Sequence record: PP291582.1
DNA length: 44,773 bases
Reading direction: 5' to 3' (one strand)
Source: Escherichia phage vB_EcoS_UTEC10
Positions 5,040 through 40,864 of this stretch are shown here, piece by piece (positions within the stretch are counted from its first letter, which is position 1; each line of letters opens with the position of its first letter). Under the pieces are notes generated by a model. The model ran no database searches. It was not told the origin of the DNA and saw only the letters and a program-made list of their open reading frames with translations. The position numbers and the translations under genes are program-made.

Positions 5040-5070
5040 CTTCCATCTCTCCACTCGTCGGTGTAAATGA

Positions 5071-5099
5071 ATAGTAGCCTATTCTATCTTAGTGTGCAA
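5071..5099 (-). promoter_or_regulatory. promoter TTGCAC-N17-TACTAT with embedded AATAG-N4-CTATT inverted repeat
   Basis: Minus-strand reading of 5071-5099; inverted repeat at 5070-5083 lies in the spacer. Confidence 0.5.
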
Positions 5100-6706: not shown

Positions 6707-6740
6707 TTCTGAATTCCTTATGTCTCGTTTCGATAAGTGA

Positions 6741-6769
6741 ATAGTATCCTATTATGTTGGGGTGTGCAA
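6741..6769 (-). promoter_or_regulatory. promoter TTGCAC-N17-TACTAT with embedded AATAG-N4-CTATT inverted repeat
   Basis: Same architecture as the 5071-5099 promoter; inverted repeat at 6740-6753. Confidence 0.5.
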
Positions 6770-7142
6770 GAGAATAGTTACGTTGCCGTTGTGATTCTTC
6801 AGGTAGGGTTGTGCCTTTATTCTTATTACTTGGTAACTAAAGGGCAGGCCCTAAGCCTGCCCAATAATCGTTACATTTTTACGGTTGCGAATCTACGGCA
6901 CTTTAAGAAAATCAGATACTTAAGATATATTCCGCCGATGGGAATAGAGCTTGCCCAGGGCAACCGGAGATACTTAGGAAGGAAAGTTACGATAATTCGA
7001 ATGTTCAGTAAACTGCCGCCTAACACTTCGCGTTGGGCGCTCGTTTTCGGCGGGTTTTACAAGGTGAACAGGAATCAAAGTAACTAAGATATAGAAGCAC
7101 CTTAAACGAAGATTTTCTTAATGTCAATAGGTGCGATTATGT

Positions 7143-10136: not shown

Positions 10137-10166
10137 ATCAATTACTCCTTAGTCAGTTGATATGTG

Positions 10167-10180
10167 AATAGTACCATATT
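10167..10180 (-). promoter_or_regulatory. operator-like half-palindrome overlapping an extended -10 (TGG-TACTAT) for the XRE gene
   Basis: GAATAG-TACC-ATATT imperfect copy of the AATAG-N4-CTATT repeat; TGGTACTAT on the minus strand about 25 nt upstream of the XRE start. Confidence 0.4.
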
Positions 10181-10200
10181 AATTATTTTAGAAAAGCCCA

Positions 10201-10230
10201 TTGACATAATGAATAGTTCGCTATTATAGT
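10201..10230 (+). promoter_or_regulatory. strong sigma70-like promoter TTGACA-N18-TATAGT with embedded AATAG-N4-CTATT repeat
   Basis: Consensus -35; inverted repeat at 10212-10225 in the spacer; drives the acidic-protein gene. Confidence 0.6.
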
Positions 10231-12316: not shown

Positions 12317-12320
12317 AGTG

Positions 12321-12349
12321 TTGACACCTGAATAGTTAGCTATTATAGT
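12321..12349 (+). promoter_or_regulatory. sigma70-like promoter TTGACA-N17-TATAGT with embedded AATAG-N4-CTATT repeat
   Basis: Consensus -35; inverted repeat at 12331-12344. Confidence 0.6.
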
Positions 12350-15810: not shown

Positions 15811-16109
15811 CACCGGAAGGAAAAATACAGAAATACGCAAAAGAGCAATTCGAGGCCATTGGTGGCCTCGTTCGTAAACTTTCCTATGAGGGGCGCTCCG
15901 GCGCTCCCGACCTTCTGGTAATTCTCCCCGGCGGCATCGTCTGGTTCGTCGAGGTGAAGAAAGATGAAAACACGAAGCCAGACCCACACCAGCTACGGGA
16001 ACATGAGCGTATGCGTAAACGTGGTGCAAATGTTTTTGTCGTTGGTTCGTTTAAACAGGTTGACGACCTAATAGCGAACTATTATAGTAGTCATACACCA
16101 ACAATATAA
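15807..16109 (+). CDS. VRR-NUC domain nuclease
   Basis: GAPDLLVILPGGIVWFVEVKKD matches the VRR-NUC PD-(D/E)XK motif; GTG start overlapping the upstream stop. Confidence 0.65.
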   Translation: MTPEGKIQKYAKEQFEAIGGLVRKLSYEGRSGAPDLLVILPGGIVWFVEVKKDENTKPDPHQLREHERMRKRGANVFVVGSFKQVDDLIANYYSSHTPTI

Positions 16110-28863: not shown

Positions 28864-28970
28864 TCTTTAATCCTTTGGTTAAGAGGTTACTGGTTAAGGT
28901 GAATGCGCCAGGCGGGAACCACCCGCTTTTCGTGTGCGACACTAGGCGCAAACTTATTCTAGCACACTAC

Positions 28971-28999
28971 TTGCAGGCCCCAATATAATAGGGTACTAT
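28971..28999 (+). promoter_or_regulatory. cassette promoter TTGCAG-N17-TACTAT with embedded TATAAT and AATAG-GGTA-CTATT repeat
   Basis: CCAATATAATAGGGTACTATTCA is repeated near-identically at 38644-38668 and 40816-40840. Confidence 0.55.
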
Positions 29000-29029
29000 T
29001 CACTTACACCAACAATGGAGGAATTTAAA

Positions 29030-31429: not shown

Positions 31430-31455
31430 AAGGCCCCGAAAGGGGCCTTAGTTTT
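31430..31455. terminator. bidirectional Rho-independent terminator (AAGGCCCC-GAAA-GGGGCCTT)
   Basis: Same stem and AGTTTTA flank as the 19060-19086 terminator; overlaps the major tail gene stop. Confidence 0.65.
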
Positions 31456-35926: not shown

Positions 35927-35985
35927 AATTTACCTCTTAGTAAATGAAAAGAGGGACCGAAGTCCCTCTCGATTATATCTTAACC

Positions 35986-37037: not shown

Positions 37038-37739
37038 TTATTTCCTCAGGGCTTTAAGTTGCCGTTCAAATTCGGCAGGGTTCGATTTATACAGGGCTAA
37101 ACGCTCTGCTTCACTCATGTCTTTAAACGCTGGTGCGGCCCCGCCGCCTTTGCTACCGGAAGCCCCGCCGCCGGAAGCTGCATTTGCTTTAATCAAATGC
37201 GAAAACGCTTTGTGTTCACGCAGGTATTTGCGGAACTGTTCCGGGTCAGTCGTGATTACATTGCCGTCTGCACCAACAAACTTAGTAACCACATCATCGC
37301 CTTCGAACTCAGTCTTAACGAACGGTGCAAGAATGTCTACCGCTTCCGGGGTGATGAAATCACCTGCGAAAGAGCCTAACACCGCTTTACGTTCGCTGCC
37401 GAGGATGCGCTCTGCCATTTTGGAGATGCGACCATCTTTCTCGGCTAACACCGGGTCATACTGGCTACGAATCGTCTTTTCAAACTCGTCCATCTTACCG
37501 GCGGCCTTTAACGCCTCCTGGTGTGCGCGCTGCCGTTCTTCTTCAGCCTCTTTTGCTTTGCGAGCGGCTTCTTTCTTCTCCGCCAGCAATGCTTCCTGAT
37601 TGGCCTTAAGCCCGGCAACTTCTTTCTCAATCAGCGCCTGAACTTCTTCGGCTGTGAACATTTTCGGCGCGTCACCGCCACCGGCTTTATCTTCTGCTCC
37701 AGCTTCTTCCTGGAACGGATAACGTAAAAAACGATTCAT
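37038..37739 (-). CDS. scaffolding protein
   Basis: Internal ATG (MNRFLRYPFQEE...); highly charged helical protein rich in Ala/Glu/Lys immediately upstream of the capsid gene; track start 37793 is TTG. Confidence 0.65.
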   Translation of the reverse strand: MNRFLRYPFQEEAGAEDKAGGGDAPKMFTAEEVQALIEKEVAGLKANQEALLAEKKEAARKAKEAEEERQRAHQEALKAAGKMDEFEKTIRSQYDPVLAEKDGRISKMAERILGSERKAVLGSFAGDFITPEAVDILAPFVKTEFEGDDVVTKFVGADGNVITTDPEQFRKYLREHKAFSHLIKANAASGGGASGSKGGGAAPAFKDMSEAERLALYKSNPAEFERQLKALRK

Positions 37740-37821
37740 AGTCAGTATGTCCCCTGGACGTTGGAATCCGGGCCCCCCGGATTTACATGTCAAGAATAAA
37801 TTATTCCAACATGCAAGGCAA

Positions 37822-38085
37822 CTATTCCAGAATATTCCTCACGTAGTCCTGCAACATGAACACTTTCAGACGCAGTTGCCGCACGCATTCGGCGTTCTGA
37901 ACGTCAATAGCTAAGTCCTGGTCAGCATCGCTACTTGGCGTGGCCAGTTTGCACGGTGGCTGCATCATCGTCGTATCCGGAGATGGAATTGGCGTTGGCG
38001 ACGGCGCGGGACTTGAGCAGGACGCGAGCATCGTCAAAAGTGCACACGCTGCGACCAGGCGTTTTAATGTACTTAACGACTTCAC
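37822..38085 (-). CDS. o-spanin (Rz1-like outer-membrane lipoprotein)
   Basis: LLTMLASC lipobox followed by a Pro-rich sequence; starts inside the i-spanin gene in another frame and extends past it. Confidence 0.55.
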   Translation of the reverse strand: MKSLSTLKRLVAACALLTMLASCSSPAPSPTPIPSPDTTMMQPPCKLATPSSDADQDLAIDVQNAECVRQLRLKVFMLQDYVRNILE

Positions 38086-38317
38086 GGGTAATTACCTCTG
38101 ATTTCGTCTTGCCTTCGTTGTCAGCGGCGGCTGCCTTTGATTCATCCTGCTGCTGCCGTTGTGTTTTCTTCGCTAACTCAGCCTGTGCTTTCTGCTGTTG
38201 CTGCGAAACGAGATTAGCGCGGCCTTCGTCCCAACCAGCGCGGTACTGGTAGATGCCGTGTGCGTATAACAGGATGATGAAACATGCTCCCGCTACGACA
38301 GTTGCTTTAAGATTCAT
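37931..38317 (-). CDS. i-spanin (Rz-like)
   Basis: N-terminal TM helix (ATVVAGACFIILLYAHGIY) followed by a Gln/Ala/Lys-rich coiled-coil region. Confidence 0.55.
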   Translation of the reverse strand: MNLKATVVAGACFIILLYAHGIYQYRAGWDEGRANLVSQQQQKAQAELAKKTQRQQQDESKAAAADNEGKTKSEVITREVVKYIKTPGRSVCTFDDARVLLKSRAVANANSISGYDDDAATVQTGHAK

Positions 38318-38636
38318 GTTTCTCCTTTCTCGATAAGTAAAGCCCCGCCATAAAGCGGGGCGCTAGTCCTTATCATTTAAACATAGAAACGGCGTAATCT
38401 CAGTAAACCCGGTACTTTTTACACAAGCAATAGAGTATGGCCCTTCCGAACGCGTCAGCGTAACTACACTCGGACTTAACGTCCGGCTCCGTTACCTGCC
38501 CGCGCCGCGGTCGCTTGTTCATACTTCACAAGCTCAGGTGGAGCTTATCATATTTTCAGTGAAAAGTCAACTATTCGAATAGTTTATTCCAACATTTACA
38601 ATTGAGCGGAATAACTGGAATACGTAAACAAATAGT

Positions 38637-38665
38637 TTGCGGACACCAATATAATAGGGTACTAT
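38637..38665 (+). promoter_or_regulatory. cassette promoter TTGCGG-N17-TACTAT with embedded AATAG-GGTA-CTATT repeat
   Basis: Near-identical to the promoters at 28971 and 40809. Confidence 0.55.
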
Positions 38666-38691
38666 TCATTACAACGAAACGAGGAGGGTGT

Positions 38692-39231
38692 ATGCTCACT
38701 AAACGTTCAGAAGCCATAGCCGCTGGTGATGATTATTACTTCACGGGAAAACCGTGTAAACGTGGGCATGTTGCGAAAAGGCATGTCCGCACCGGGTGCT
38801 ATGAGTGCGCTAAAGAGATACAAAAATCGTACCGAGAACGCAACGTTGTTTCTTGGGCGGCGAAAAACGCAAAATGGAGGCAAGAAAATAGAGACCGAAT
38901 AGCCGAAATTGACGCAGAGTACCGTAAGAAAAACAAAACCGCCAGGAAAGCCCAAAGGCTAAAGTATAAAACGGCAAAAAGAGCCAGGAGTATAAACATC
39001 AGGAATGATGAATTTGACCTATTAGTATTCGAAGAAGCGCAGGAGCTATGTCAACTACGAGCGGGCGAAACAGGTTTCGTATGGCATATCGACCACATGC
39101 TGCCGCTGCGTGCTAAAACTGTCTCGGGGCTGCATGTCGCAGAAAACATACAAGTTATCCCCGCGGTTCTGAATCTCTTAAAAGGTAATAAATTAATTTT
39201 CACCGAGAGAGGCTCTTGGTTGTCTTCCTGA
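38692..39231 (+). CDS. HNH endonuclease (free-standing)
   Basis: Internal ATG with GAGGAGGG RBS; GDDYYFTGKPCKRGH zinc-binding N-terminus and HIDHMLPLRAK...N HNH motif. Confidence 0.75.
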   Translation: MLTKRSEAIAAGDDYYFTGKPCKRGHVAKRHVRTGCYECAKEIQKSYRERNVVSWAAKNAKWRQENRDRIAEIDAEYRKKNKTARKAQRLKYKTAKRARSINIRNDEFDLLVFEEAQELCQLRAGETGFVWHIDHMLPLRAKTVSGLHVAENIQVIPAVLNLLKGNKLIFTERGSWLSS

Positions 39232-39236
39232 AATTG

Positions 39237-39259
39237 AGGCCCCTTAATGGGGCCTTTTA
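39237..39259 (+). terminator. Rho-independent terminator (AGGCCCC-TTAAT-GGGGCCT)
   Basis: GC stem followed by TTTTAT. Confidence 0.55.
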
Positions 39260-39721
39260 TCATTCTGGCTTAGTAACCTTCGCCGCTTTACTCACAGCCT
39301 CTACTCCATCAGCATCGGTAACTTTAACGAAGTATTCACCGACAGCATTAACTGTCAGAGACAAAGCCTCTTCCGGGGCGTTTACCACTTCCTTACCGTC
39401 TTTGTACCAGGTCAGCGCATACGGCGCTTTGCCCGCCTTAACTTCAACAGTAAGAGTCGCGCTGCCGTCTACCAATTCGGTGTCTTTCGGTTGTACAGAG
39501 AAATACACATCACCAGCGTCCGCCAGATACGGAATCTCGTAAAGCATACCAGCCGCCGGAAGCGCAATACCGGTTTTATCTGCAAACGGCATATCGTCTA
39601 CAGGTGTACCCAGTACACTTTCGTCCTCAATAAATACCACGTTCTCGCCAGAGCCAGACACGCGGGTGTACTGGACAACACGACGCGACGGTACATCAGT
39701 TACTTTGAAAAAGCCCATCAT
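39260..39721 (-). CDS. Ig-like (BIG2-type) domain virion protein
   Basis: C-terminal YALTWYKDGKEV...GEYFVKVTDADG Ig-like pattern; downstream of head morphogenesis gene. Confidence 0.5.
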   Translation of the reverse strand: MMGFFKVTDVPSRRVVQYTRVSGSGENVVFIEDESVLGTPVDDMPFADKTGIALPAAGMLYEIPYLADAGDVYFSVQPKDTELVDGSATLTVEVKAGKAPYALTWYKDGKEVVNAPEEALSLTVNAVGEYFVKVTDADGVEAVSKAAKVTKPE

Positions 39722-40764: not shown

Positions 40765-40808
40765 AATCCCTCCTGTAGTACCGACAGTGTAACGCATAAA
40801 AATAATAT

Positions 40809-40837
40809 TTGCAGACACCAATATAATAGGGTACTAT
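40809..40837 (+). promoter_or_regulatory. cassette promoter TTGCAG-N17-TACTAT with embedded AATAG-GGTA-CTATT repeat
   Basis: Third copy of CACCAATATAATAGGGTACTATTCA. Confidence 0.55.
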
Positions 40838-40864
40838 TCAGTTAACTTAAGCAGGAGATGAAAA

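What the first reader, a model, noticed from the sequence alone, without database searches (positions are those of the whole stretch)
38318..38691. Noncoding region of about 370 bp upstream of the HNH cassette with an everted CTATTCGAATAG palindrome and a GC hairpin
Between the i-spanin start and the HNH gene there is no convincing ORF. The region contains a GCCCCGC-N6-GCGGGGC hairpin (38342-38361) and a perfect 12-bp palindrome CTATTCGAATAG (38571-38582) built from the same half-sites as the operator repeat but in everted orientation, about 60 bp upstream of the cassette promoter. It could be an auxiliary operator, a homing or recombination site, or a small RNA locus.
Basis: seen in the sequence. 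Interest (0 to 1): 0.4.

Follow-up and report, generated by a model that had tools for sequence, protein, structure and literature searches.

The report
Conserved structured leader RNA before phage late genes
The "empty" 370 bp in front of the spanin gene of this Kagunavirus-like phage most likely holds a leftward promoter, a roughly 200-nucleotide non-coding RNA whose folded shape is conserved, and a terminator-like hairpin, placed where it could control the capsid and tail genes, and no RNA database lists it.

Summary
Neither is unusual on its own. The window has nine 12-bp perfect palindromes against about 11 expected. This one extends to 16 bp (38569-38584), where about 0.7 are expected.

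The region as a whole is a minus-strand transcription unit:
- An extended -10 sigma-70 promoter: TTGACT at 38565-38570, 17 nt, TG, TAAGCT at 38542-38547.
- A leader of about 200 nt with a 76-nt long hairpin (38439-38514), strongly supported by compensatory changes.
- An invariant box at 38425-38450.
- The GC hairpin, which is the top of a compound terminator-like stem (38332-38374).
- The i-spanin ribosome-binding site directly after it.

The region is 94% identical between Kagunavirus and a Jerseyvirus whose flanking spanin and scaffold genes are only 71-83% identical. A second sequence type (57% identity) folds into the same shape. At least 17 related contigs carry a paralogous copy at the head of the early operon, with homology starting exactly at the -35.

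The palindrome abuts the -35 but is missing from the second type and from the early copies, so it is an accessory at most. There is no Rfam match, no conserved ORF and no match in E. coli genomes.

The most likely function is cis control of read-through into the late operon. This is inferred, not shown.

The parts
38585..38622 (.). Upstream repeat cluster (site A): TATTCC at 38585-38590, then GGAATA at 38608-38613 and 38617-38622. It is probably a protein-binding region of the leftward promoter. Its right edge is the insertion point of the variable cassette.
   Evidence: GGAATAACTGGAATA and TATTCC are identical in Type 1 and Type 2 relatives that are otherwise 57% identical. A similar triple GGAATA cluster with the shared 12-mer TTATTCCAACAT lies before the scaffold gene at 37797-37840. 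Protein binding is inferred.
38569..38584 (.). 16-bp perfect palindrome AACTATTCGAATAGTT. It abuts and overlaps by 2 bp the -35 hexamer of the leftward promoter, with its centre near -41.5.
   Evidence: It is the only 16-bp palindrome in the window, with 0.7-0.8 expected. It is nearly invariant in 33 distinct Type 1 sequences. It is not palindromic in Type 2 (ACTTTTTGAATAAAG) and is absent upstream of the early-region paralogues.
38542..38570 (-). Sigma-70 promoter of the extended -10 type: -35 TTGACT (38570-38565), 17-nt spacer, TG (38550-38549), -10 TAAGCT (38547-38542). The predicted start is near 38535.
   Evidence: GACT of the -35, the TG, and TAnGCT are conserved in Type 1, Type 2 and all early copies, while the spacer varies. 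The fBC-Eco01 record annotates a predicted host promoter at the equivalent place. Promoter activity is not shown.
38513..38533 (-). P0 hairpin (GCUUGU-GAAGUAUGA-ACAAGC) at the 5' end of the RNA.
   Evidence: It is predicted in the minimum-energy fold and present in Type 1 late copies and all early copies. It is replaced or truncated in Type 2.
38439..38514 (-). Long irregular hairpin P1-P2-P3. The base (ACCGCGGyGCG paired with CGCrUUCGG) is conserved and the apex is variable.
   Evidence: All 18 sequence variants fold independently into the same topology. On the model-fitted alignment, 94.5% of cells pair against 26-42% in slid controls, 12 of 23 pairs change on both sides, and 0 of 500 shuffles reach this. 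One P1 pair appears as C-G, U-A and A-U. Two invariant G-U pairs in P1 fit only the minus-strand RNA.
38425..38450 (-). Invariant box UUCGGAAGGGCC-N5-CUAUUGCUU. It covers the 3' strand of P1 and the single-stranded tail after it.
   Evidence: It is identical at every position, including the would-be wobble positions, across Type 1 and Type 2. Only the 5-6 nt in the middle vary. It is kept in the early paralogues as GGAAGGGyC-N5-CUAUUG.
38332..38374 (-). Compound terminator-like hairpin. The lower stem is GAUAAG (38374-38369) paired with CUUAUC (38337-38332), which lies within the U-rich tail UUUACUUAUC.
   Evidence: The scan calls it terminator-like on the minus strand only. ARNold predicts a terminator here in fBC-Eco01. 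Compensatory variants of the upper stem: GCCCCGC/GCGGGGC, GCCCUGC/GCAGGGC, GCCCGGC/GCCGGGC, GCCCGAC/GUCGGGC. The lower stem changes from GAUAAG/CUUAUC to UAUACG/CGUAUA. The U tract is only moderate in Type 1 and weak in Type 2 (UUAGCG).
38315..38328 (-). Shine-Dalgarno AAGGAG (38328-38323) and the i-spanin start codon (38317-38315). This is the first gene of the late operon: spanins, scaffold, major capsid protein and onwards.
   Evidence: ORF list and annotation of relatives.
38623..39256 (+). Variable plus-strand cassette, not part of the RNA unit. It has its own operator-type promoter (TTGCGG 38637-38642, AATAG-GGTA-CTATT 38653-38666, TACTAT 38660-38665), an endonuclease VII / HNH-like gene (38692-39231) and a bidirectional terminator (39236-39256).
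   Evidence: The promoter belongs to repeat family D2. The gene matches PHROG 1035, endonuclease VII, at 1e-31 and has no Pfam hit. Of 53 distinct related loci, 30 carry a cassette, with at least 15 different first genes, and 23 carry none.

Best explanation
The region is the control region and 5' leader of the phage's late (spanin, scaffold, capsid, tail) operon, read on the minus strand.

Proposed sequence of events:
1. Host RNA polymerase with sigma-70 starts at an extended -10 promoter (38570-38542).
2. It transcribes about 200 nt of non-coding RNA. This RNA contains a small 5' hairpin, a 76-nt long hairpin with a conserved base, and an invariant single-stranded box (UUCGGAAGGGCC...CUAUUG).
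3. It then meets a compound hairpin with a U-rich tail (38374-38332), which sits directly in front of the spanin ribosome-binding site.

Most likely the hairpin stops part of the transcripts, releasing a roughly 200-nt RNA. The structured leader, acting in cis alone or with a protein, would then set how many polymerases read on into the late genes, or how stable the read-through mRNA is.

The TATTCC/GGAATA repeats and the palindrome just upstream of the -35 are DNA sites special to the late copy. They probably time this promoter, because the paralogous early-operon copy has the same core promoter without them.

Shown: the sequence elements, their conservation, and the covariation of the RNA helices on the minus strand. 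Inferred: promoter activity, termination, and the cis-regulatory role.
For: (1) Conservation. The non-coding stretch is 94% identical between the window and Jerseyvirus SETP13, while the spanins are 71% and the scaffold gene 83% identical. The step in identity falls exactly at the spanin start codon.

(2) Promoter. The -35, the TG and TAnGCT are kept in Type 1, Type 2 and the early copies while the spacer varies. A published annotation of a relative predicts the same promoter independently.

(3) RNA structure.
- All 18 variants fold into the same P1-P2-P3 hairpin.
- 94.5% of cells are paired, 12 of 23 pairs have double changes, and 0 of 500 shuffles reach this.
- Two invariant G-U pairs in P1 would be A-C mismatches in a plus-strand transcript, so they fit only the minus-strand RNA.
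- The minus-strand fold has z = -2.4.

(4) The terminal hairpin covaries in both its upper and lower stems. It is scored as terminator-like only on the minus strand.

(5) Context.
- In relatives without a cassette, the unit begins about 10 nt after the strong terminator of the upstream Hoc-like gene, so downstream genes need a new promoter here.
- Good in-operon terminators follow at 35970-35949 and 31449-31430 with no consensus promoter after them.

(6) A paralogous copy with the same promoter sits at the head of the early operon in at least 17 related contigs, co-oriented with the genes. Homology starts exactly at the -35.

(7) It is not coding. One-nucleotide indels break the frame, the early copies carry a stop codon in that frame (read by hand), and no PHROG or Pfam family matches.
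Against: - There are no transcript data. The one Guernseyvirinae RNA-seq paper found reports per-gene timing only.
- The -10 hexamer matches the consensus at only 3 of 6 positions, and the generic promoter scan did not list it.
- The U tract after the hairpin is moderate in Type 1 and poor in Type 2, so termination may be weak.
- No antiterminator/terminator alternative pairing conserved in both types was found by inspection.
- No Q-like or other antitermination protein was found among ten candidate phage proteins.
- In the early copies the hairpin is followed by a separate operator-type promoter. That arrangement fits a free-standing small RNA gene as well as a leader.
- The covariation count was made on an alignment fitted to the model, which favours the structure.
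Confidence: 0.55

Rival explanations
1. It is a free-standing gene for a trans-acting small RNA. The promoter and terminator make a roughly 200-nt RNA that acts on host or phage mRNAs or proteins through the invariant single-stranded box. Read-through into the spanin gene would be incidental.
For: It is a self-contained unit with promoter, structured RNA and hairpin with a U tail. Two paralogues per genome occur in many relatives, and the early one is followed by a separate promoter for the downstream genes. The apex of the hairpin is variable while the single-stranded box is invariant, as expected for a seed or protein-binding site. From established knowledge, lambda 6S RNA and StxS show that promoter-proximal terminated phage transcripts can act in trans.
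Against: Both copies are always co-oriented with, and directly ahead of, long operons. The late copy has no separate promoter of consensus quality between the hairpin and the spanin gene. The U tail is short for an Hfq-type small RNA. No target was identified. There is no similar sequence in 5,426 E. coli genomes, so it does not mimic a host RNA.
Confidence: 0.2
2. It is an RNA processing or stability element. The long hairpin, the compound 3' hairpin or both would be RNase III-type sites or protective stem-loops that set the half-life and translation of the spanin-scaffold-capsid mRNA. Transcription read-through would not be controlled.
For: There are two long imperfect stems of about 20 bp. 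The 3' stem ends 4 nt before the Shine-Dalgarno sequence. In Type 1, GUUUCU upstream can pair with AGAAA(C) around the ribosome-binding site. A second conserved, covarying hairpin sits just before the scaffold gene at 37765-37783. This suggests that stem-loops before genes are a habit of this operon.
Against: This does not explain the invariant single-stranded box, nor why the same module heads the early operon with a different 3' end. The pairing with the ribosome-binding site is not kept in Type 2 or in early variants E2 and E3.
Confidence: 0.12
3. The main function is at the DNA level. The palindrome and repeats would be an operator, a homing or recombination site for the cassette, or an origin or packaging signal, and the RNA folding would be incidental.
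For: The palindrome uses the operator hexamers and touches the -35. The cassette slot starts right after the GGAATA repeats and is highly variable. The GGAATA clusters occur twice in the late region.
Against: Compensatory changes, and G-U pairs that fit only one strand, show selection on a single-stranded minus-strand molecule. The palindrome is absent from Type 2 and from the early copies. The cassette junction is 40 bp away from the palindrome. The conserved 200 bp left of the promoter contains no repeats or AT-rich block typical of an origin. These DNA sites may well exist as accessories of the promoter, but they do not explain the region.
Confidence: 0.07
4. It encodes a small protein: the 40-aa ORF at 38522-38400 on the minus strand, annotated as a hypothetical protein in some relatives.
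For: An ORF of 36-40 aa covering the conserved box is open in most late copies of both types, with AFGRA.LYC shared. It is annotated in CR01, fBC-Eco01 and PIZ SAE-01E2.
Against: - The start codons differ between the types.
- One-nucleotide indels shift the frame in Golestan, fBC-Eco01, L061, L135 and L141.
- The invariant box is invariant at third codon positions too, while the codons between vary to Gly and Pro.
- Early copies have a stop codon in the P3 loop in that frame and no start codon.
- There is no convincing Shine-Dalgarno sequence.
- No PHROG or Pfam family matches.
Confidence: 0.03

Closest known systems
Lambda late control region PR'-6S RNA-tR' with Q antiterminator (and StxS of Stx phages)
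   Same: A sigma-70 promoter, a non-coding leader of about 190-200 nt and a hairpin terminator are placed immediately before lysis genes (here the Rz/Rz1-type spanins), which are followed by head genes. The short transcript could be both a regulatory substrate and an RNA product.
   Different: No Q-family gene lies upstream, and none was found among ten candidate proteins. The leader is highly structured and covaries, which is not a feature of 6S/tR'. A -10-like pause element in the first 25 nt is not conserved between types. The phage is virulent and a second copy heads the early operon.
HK022 put RNAs (putL, putR)
   Same: These are cis-located structured RNA elements of stem-loops in the promoter-proximal leader. 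They occur in two paralogous copies at the heads of two long operons that contain terminators. No dedicated antiterminator protein is recognisable.
   Different: There is no sequence relationship. The architecture here is one small hairpin plus one 76-nt three-part hairpin, and the small hairpin is missing in Type 2. An effect on polymerase is untested.
RNase III processing hairpins of T7 and the lambda N leader
   Same: Long imperfect stems lie between a promoter or gene end and the next ribosome-binding site.
   Different: There is no evidence of cleavage. The conserved single-stranded box and the shared promoter are not explained.
PHIRE motif tgAATAGTa-ccTATTat-T of Kagunaviruses (PMC9825357, PMC7203180)
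   Same: The palindrome reuses the GAATAG and CTATTC hexamers of this published repeated motif. The cassette promoter at 38637-38666 is one copy of the motif.
   Different: In the palindrome the half-sites are everted with no spacer. The papers call the motif a phage-polymerase promoter, although no RNA polymerase gene is annotated in the Golestan record. In the window the motif overlaps sigma-70-like hexamers.

Membership tests
Any Rfam family | Score at or near the family's gathering threshold with its covariance model | tested here: not met
   cmscan with permissive E-value thresholds on window 37700-39400 gave only chance-level hits (best 18 bits against a gathering score of 41; none covers the leader beyond the GC stem). 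It gave nothing on the early paralogue at L154 11900-12500. There are no tRNA or tmRNA genes.
Lambda-type Q antitermination module | Q-family antiterminator gene encoded next to the late promoter | tested here: not met
   The upstream genes are the Hoc-like decoration gene and the endonuclease cassette. Ten candidate early proteins of the relative Golestan gave no antiterminator family in Pfam or PHROGs, only two small HTH proteins. Not all small ORFs were scanned.
Lambda-type Q antitermination module | Constitutive sigma-70 promoter followed by a short leader ending in an intrinsic terminator before the lysis genes | tested here: inconclusive
   The promoter elements and the hairpin with a U-rich tail are present and conserved. 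The U tract is moderate in Type 1 and weak in Type 2, and activity is untested.
Lambda-type Q antitermination module | Sigma-dependent promoter-proximal pause element (-10-like, +1 to +25) and a Q-binding element | tested here: inconclusive
   TATGAA at about +12 to +17 exists in Type 1, but that segment is deleted in Type 2. A Q-binding element cannot be defined without a Q protein.
HK022 put-type antiterminator RNA | Two adjacent stem-loops in the nascent leader, present downstream of two operon promoters | tested here: inconclusive
   P0 plus the long hairpin, and early plus late copies, are found in Type 1 genomes. P0 is not conserved in Type 2.
HK022 put-type antiterminator RNA | Acts in cis on RNA polymerase to suppress downstream terminators without a protein factor | not testable with these tools
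   This needs in vitro transcription or reporter assays.
Operator of the AATAG-N4-CTATT repeat family | Inverted AATAG/CTATT half-sites separated by 4 bp and overlapping the -10 or spacer of a promoter | tested here: not met
   The palindrome has the half-sites everted (CTATTC|GAATAG) with no spacer, and it lies upstream of the -35 rather than over the -10.
Small protein gene | Reading frame, start codon and substitution pattern conserved among relatives | tested here: not met
   There are frame-shifting indels, differing start codons, invariant third positions in the box, and a stop codon in the early copies.

The most novel reading that the evidence does not exclude
The promoter-proximal structured RNA is a new class of cis-acting processive antitermination or read-through element. 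It would work without a protein, like put, or with an unrecognised factor. Virulent Guernseyvirinae phages would place it at the head of both their early and late operons, and the released 200-nt fragment might double as a small RNA.
Probability: 0.2. Interest if true: 0.75.

Novelty: new member of a known kind. Interest (0 to 1): 0.5.

Why it matters
Guernseyvirinae (Kagunavirus, Jerseyvirus) are among the most often isolated E. coli and Salmonella phages for therapy and food safety. How they time their late genes is not known, and no phage RNA polymerase, sigma factor or antiterminator is annotated in the Golestan record.

A strongly conserved, covarying RNA placed exactly between the promoter and the first late gene, with a twin at the early operon, is a concrete handle on that question. 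It can be tested directly with reporter fusions, in vitro transcription and compensatory mutants.

It also corrects existing annotations, which either leave the region empty or call a spurious 40-aa protein there. Finally, it defines a conserved landmark next to a hypervariable gene slot that could be used for engineering.

Tried and rejected
- Rfam and tRNA searches found nothing.
- The small-ORF reading was rejected on indels, codon pattern and the early copies.
- A metagenome scan with a structure-anchored pattern returned 31 loci, all near-identical Type 1 copies, so it added no diversity.
- The first viral-contig scan, with the 15-mer GGAATAACTGGAATA, was mostly chance hits and had to be filtered.
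- More distant relatives have a long non-coding region before the spanin gene too: Cornellvirus Shemara and vB_CECAV_044, and Klebsiella phage VLCpiS11a. They do not match the covariance model. Only a short AUAGUCUAUU-like box is shared with Cornellvirus, and VLCpiS11a has TTGCGAG repeats instead.
- A search for that box as a pattern in the window was uninformative: 2 hits against 2.1 expected.
- No antiterminator-like protein was found.
- I looked by eye for a conserved antiterminator/terminator alternative pairing and for boxA/boxB, ops, IHF and CRP sites. None was convincing in both types.
- The plus-strand promoter-like site at 38525-38554 and the hairpin at 38530-38546 from the scan are not conserved in Type 2 and overlap the minus-strand -10.
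- E. coli genomes hold no similar sequence.
- Literature searches found only in-silico promoter and terminator lists and one RNA-seq study without intergenic analysis.

Full report
**What the window is.** The window is a complete or nearly complete genome of a Guernseyvirinae siphophage, Kagunavirus-like. A 601-base query spanning the finding (38200-38800) matched 193 phage records, mostly Escherichia and Salmonella phages, at 88-96% identity. On the minus strand the order is terminase, portal, head morphogenesis (40821-39721), Hoc-like decoration (39721-39260), then the plus-strand cassette, the non-coding region, i-spanin and o-spanin (38317-37822), scaffold, major capsid protein and the tail genes.

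**Check of the observation.** The palindrome is really 16 bp, AACTATTCGAATAGTT, at 38569-38584. By themselves they are not remarkable:
- The window has nine 12-bp perfect palindromes against 10.9 expected.
- It has one 16-bp palindrome against 0.7-0.8 expected.
- It has 13 perfect GC-rich 7-bp hairpins.

The hexamers GAATAG and CTATTC do match the repeated operator-like motif AATAG-N4-CTATT. That motif overlaps sigma-70-like promoters at about nine places in the window. The literature describes it as a PHIRE motif (PMC9825357). No conserved ORF fills the gap.

**Conservation.** A 375-base query covering only the non-coding stretch (38318-38692) matched 215 phage records; 176 of them cover at least 80% of it at 94-97% identity. 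Between the window and Jerseyvirus SETP13 the non-coding stretch is 94% identical. The adjacent spanin genes are 71% and the scaffold gene 83% identical, and the jump in identity falls exactly at the spanin start codon.

A second version, Type 2 (for example phages T102 and PIZ SAE-01E2), is only 57% identical but collinear. One contig, L131, has an intermediate version.

**Relatives without the HNH gene.** Of 53 distinct related loci, 23 have no plus-strand cassette at all. In those, the terminator of the Hoc-like gene is followed within about 10 nt by GGAATAACTGGAATA. The other 30 carry a cassette with at least 15 different first genes. Each cassette is led by the same operator-type promoter. 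The variable slot therefore begins just right of 38622 and ends at the bidirectional terminator at 39236-39256. The palindrome is 40 bp away from the junction. The window's cassette gene matches PHROG 1035, endonuclease VII, which belongs to the HNH-like His-Me finger nucleases on general knowledge; it gave no Pfam hit, so that class was not tested here.

**Promoter.** Read on the minus strand, both types and all paralogues keep the following elements, while the spacer between them differs:
- TTGACT, or TAGACT in most Type 2 copies;
- a 17-nt spacer that ends in TGn, giving the extended -10 motif;
- TAAGCT or TACGCT.

In the window these are -35 at 38570-38565, TG at 38550-38549 and -10 at 38547-38542, with a predicted start near 38535. 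The generic scan missed this promoter because the -10 matches only 3 of 6 positions. The critical A at -11, T at -7 and the TG are all present. The annotation of fBC-Eco01 predicts a host promoter at the same place.

**The RNA.** From that start the minus strand folds better than shuffles (z = -2.4).

Its core is a 76-nt irregular hairpin (38514-38439):
- P1 pairs CCG-C-GGyGCG with CGCrUUCGG.
- P2 and the apical P3 differ completely in sequence between variants, yet all 18 variants fold alone into the same topology.
- A covariance model built from the Type 1 variants found Type 2 copies at 37-43 bits.
- On the resulting alignment, 94.5% of cells pair against 26-42% when partners are slid. Twelve of 23 pairs show changes on both sides, and no shuffle out of 500 reaches any measure.
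- One P1 pair occurs as C-G, U-A and A-U.
- Two invariant G-U pairs in P1 fit only the minus-strand RNA.
- The alignment was fitted to the model, which favours the structure. The independent single-sequence folds give the same picture.

Right after P1 comes a box, UUCGGAAGGGCC-N5-CUAUUGCUU (38450-38425), that is invariant in both types.

Its upper and lower parts both covary: GCCCCGC/GCGGGGC, GCCCUGC/GCAGGGC, GCCCGGC/GCCGGGC and GCCCGAC/GUCGGGC for the upper stem, and GAUAAG/CUUAUC against UAUACG/CGUAUA for the lower. The stem is followed by UUUACUUAUC and then, 4 nt later, the spanin Shine-Dalgarno sequence. It is scored terminator-like only on the minus strand. ARNold predicts a terminator at the equivalent place in a relative. 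The U tract is moderate in Type 1 and weak in Type 2.

**Not a protein.** A 36-40-aa ORF overlaps the box in most late copies. The evidence against it:
- Its start differs between types.
- One-nucleotide indels shift the frame in several phages.
- The box is invariant at third codon positions, while the codons in between change to Gly or Pro.
- The early paralogues have a stop codon in that frame.
- No protein family matches.

**A second copy.** The model also hit a second site in two contigs at 67-68 bits, and in the complete genome of phage Golestan at 28 bits. A pattern scan then showed two copies per contig in at least 17 IMG/VR contigs.

The second copy lies in the early divergent intergenic region, next to the small HTH_17 regulator gene and upstream of the early genes. 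It has the same promoter, P0 hairpin, P1 base and box. It has four different apical versions and a different 3' part, ending in another hairpin with a U-rich tail. An operator-type promoter follows.

Homology between early and late copies begins exactly at the -35 hexamer. The late copy of L131 carries the apical sequence of one early variant, which points to exchange between the two copies.

The window itself lacks the 5' half of the early copy. At 7127-6835 (minus strand) it has another promoter (TTGACA-N17-TAAGGT), an unrelated structured leader (z = -3.2) and a hairpin. The 3' half of that leader resembles the early copies of relatives by eye; this was not aligned.

**What is special to the late copy.** Only the late copy has the TATTCC/GGAATA sites (38585-38622) and, in Type 1 only, the palindrome touching the -35. 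A similar cluster of three GGAATA sites lies before the scaffold gene (37797-37840). It shares the 12-mer TTATTCCAACAT, a TTGACA and a covarying hairpin (37765-37783). Parts of it (two GGAATA sites, TTGACA and the hairpin) are also kept in Cornellvirus, and the hairpin alone in an unclassified Klebsiella phage.

These look like DNA sites for a regulator that times the late region. The two small HTH proteins of the phage are candidates. In Type 2 the place of the palindrome is taken by an A tract (CAAAAAG), like an UP-element subsite. The palindrome is therefore not needed for the conserved function.

**Interpretation.** The best-supported reading is a promoter plus a structured, partly terminated leader that controls entry into the late operon. 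Three things about the context fit this:
- A strong terminator ends the upstream operon just before the unit.
- Good terminators lie inside the late operon, after the capsid gene at 35970-35949 and at 31449-31430, with no consensus promoter behind them.
- The same module heads the early operon.

This resembles lambda PR'-6S-tR' and HK022 put in logic. It fails or leaves open the defining tests for membership in either: no Q gene, no conserved pause element, and no relation to any Rfam family. A trans-acting small RNA or an RNA processing and stability element remain real alternatives. None can be separated without transcript mapping and mutants.

No similar sequence exists in 5,426 complete E. 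coli genomes.

**Verdict.** That feature is a conserved, covarying, unannotated RNA transcription unit at the head of the late genes of a widely used phage group. I found no description of it in Rfam, in the annotated records I opened or in the full-text searches I ran. It is a new member of a known kind of element, of moderate interest.

Noticed in passing
L154 12195-12400 (-), L133 11819-11917 (-), L127 (Golestan) 37590-37790 (+), and 14 or more further IMG/VR contigs: A paralogous copy of the promoter, P0, long hairpin and box sits in the early divergent intergenic region of many relatives. It comes in four apical variants and is followed by a hairpin with a U-rich tail and then an operator-type promoter. 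The window lacks the 5' half of this copy.
   Followed up: yes
window 6835-7127 (minus strand): The early-region counterpart in the window has a TTGACA-N17-TAAGGT promoter (7127-7099), an unrelated, strongly structured non-coding leader of about 280 nt (z = -3.2), a hairpin GGGCAGGC..GCCTGCCC with TTT (6842-6862), and then the operator promoter at 6770-6734. It contains an AAGCUCUAUUC box, and its 3' half resembles the early copies of relatives by eye (not aligned).
   Followed up: partly
window 37765-37840: A second regulatory cluster lies before the scaffold gene: three TATTCC/GGAATA sites (37802, 37823, 37833), the 12-mer TTATTCCAACAT shared with 38584, a TTGACA (37793-37788, minus strand) with no -10, and a hairpin AATCCGGG-CCC-CCCGGATT (37765-37783). 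The hairpin covaries and, together with two of the GGAATA sites and the TTGACA, is kept in Cornellvirus; the hairpin alone is also kept in Klebsiella phage VLCpiS11a.
   Followed up: partly
window 38623-39256: A hypervariable gene slot. Among 53 distinct related loci, 23 are empty and 30 hold a cassette with at least 15 different first genes. Each cassette sits behind the same operator-type promoter and before the bidirectional terminator of the Hoc-like gene. The window's gene is an endonuclease VII / HNH-like protein (PHROG 1035, no Pfam hit).
   Followed up: partly
window 5062-5084, 6729-6770, 10159-10230, 12320-12349, 16059-16088, 28950-29002, 38616-38668, 40788-40840: A family of sigma-70-like promoters overlapped by the palindrome AATAG-N4-CTATT. 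Published as a PHIRE motif and called a 'phage RNA polymerase promoter', although no RNA polymerase gene is annotated in the Golestan record. More likely these are operators of one of the two small HTH proteins.
   Followed up: partly
L131 2220-2320 compared with L207, L211 and L215 early copies: The late copy in contig L131 has the apical hairpin sequence of early-copy variant E4. This suggests gene conversion between the early and late copies within a genome lineage.
   Followed up: no
L127 (Golestan) 37803-37830 and equivalents in L201, L202, L210, L212, L214: A (CTCA)n microsatellite with a variable copy number (about 3 to 6) lies inside the early leader of some relatives.
   Followed up: no
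window 35949-35970 (-) and 31430-31449 (both strands): Strong intrinsic-terminator-like hairpins lie inside the late operon, one right after the major capsid gene and one further down. No consensus promoter follows either, so downstream head-completion and tail genes depend on read-through.
   Followed up: no
L194 1090-1416 and L196 940-1265 (Cornellvirus); L195 1283-1565 (Klebsiella phage VLCpiS11a): More distant relatives also have a long non-coding region before the i-spanin gene. In Cornellvirus it is about 300 nt rich in GC hairpins with an AUAGUCUAUUC box. In VLCpiS11a there is instead a cluster of six TTGCGAG repeats. Neither matches the covariance model.
   Followed up: partly
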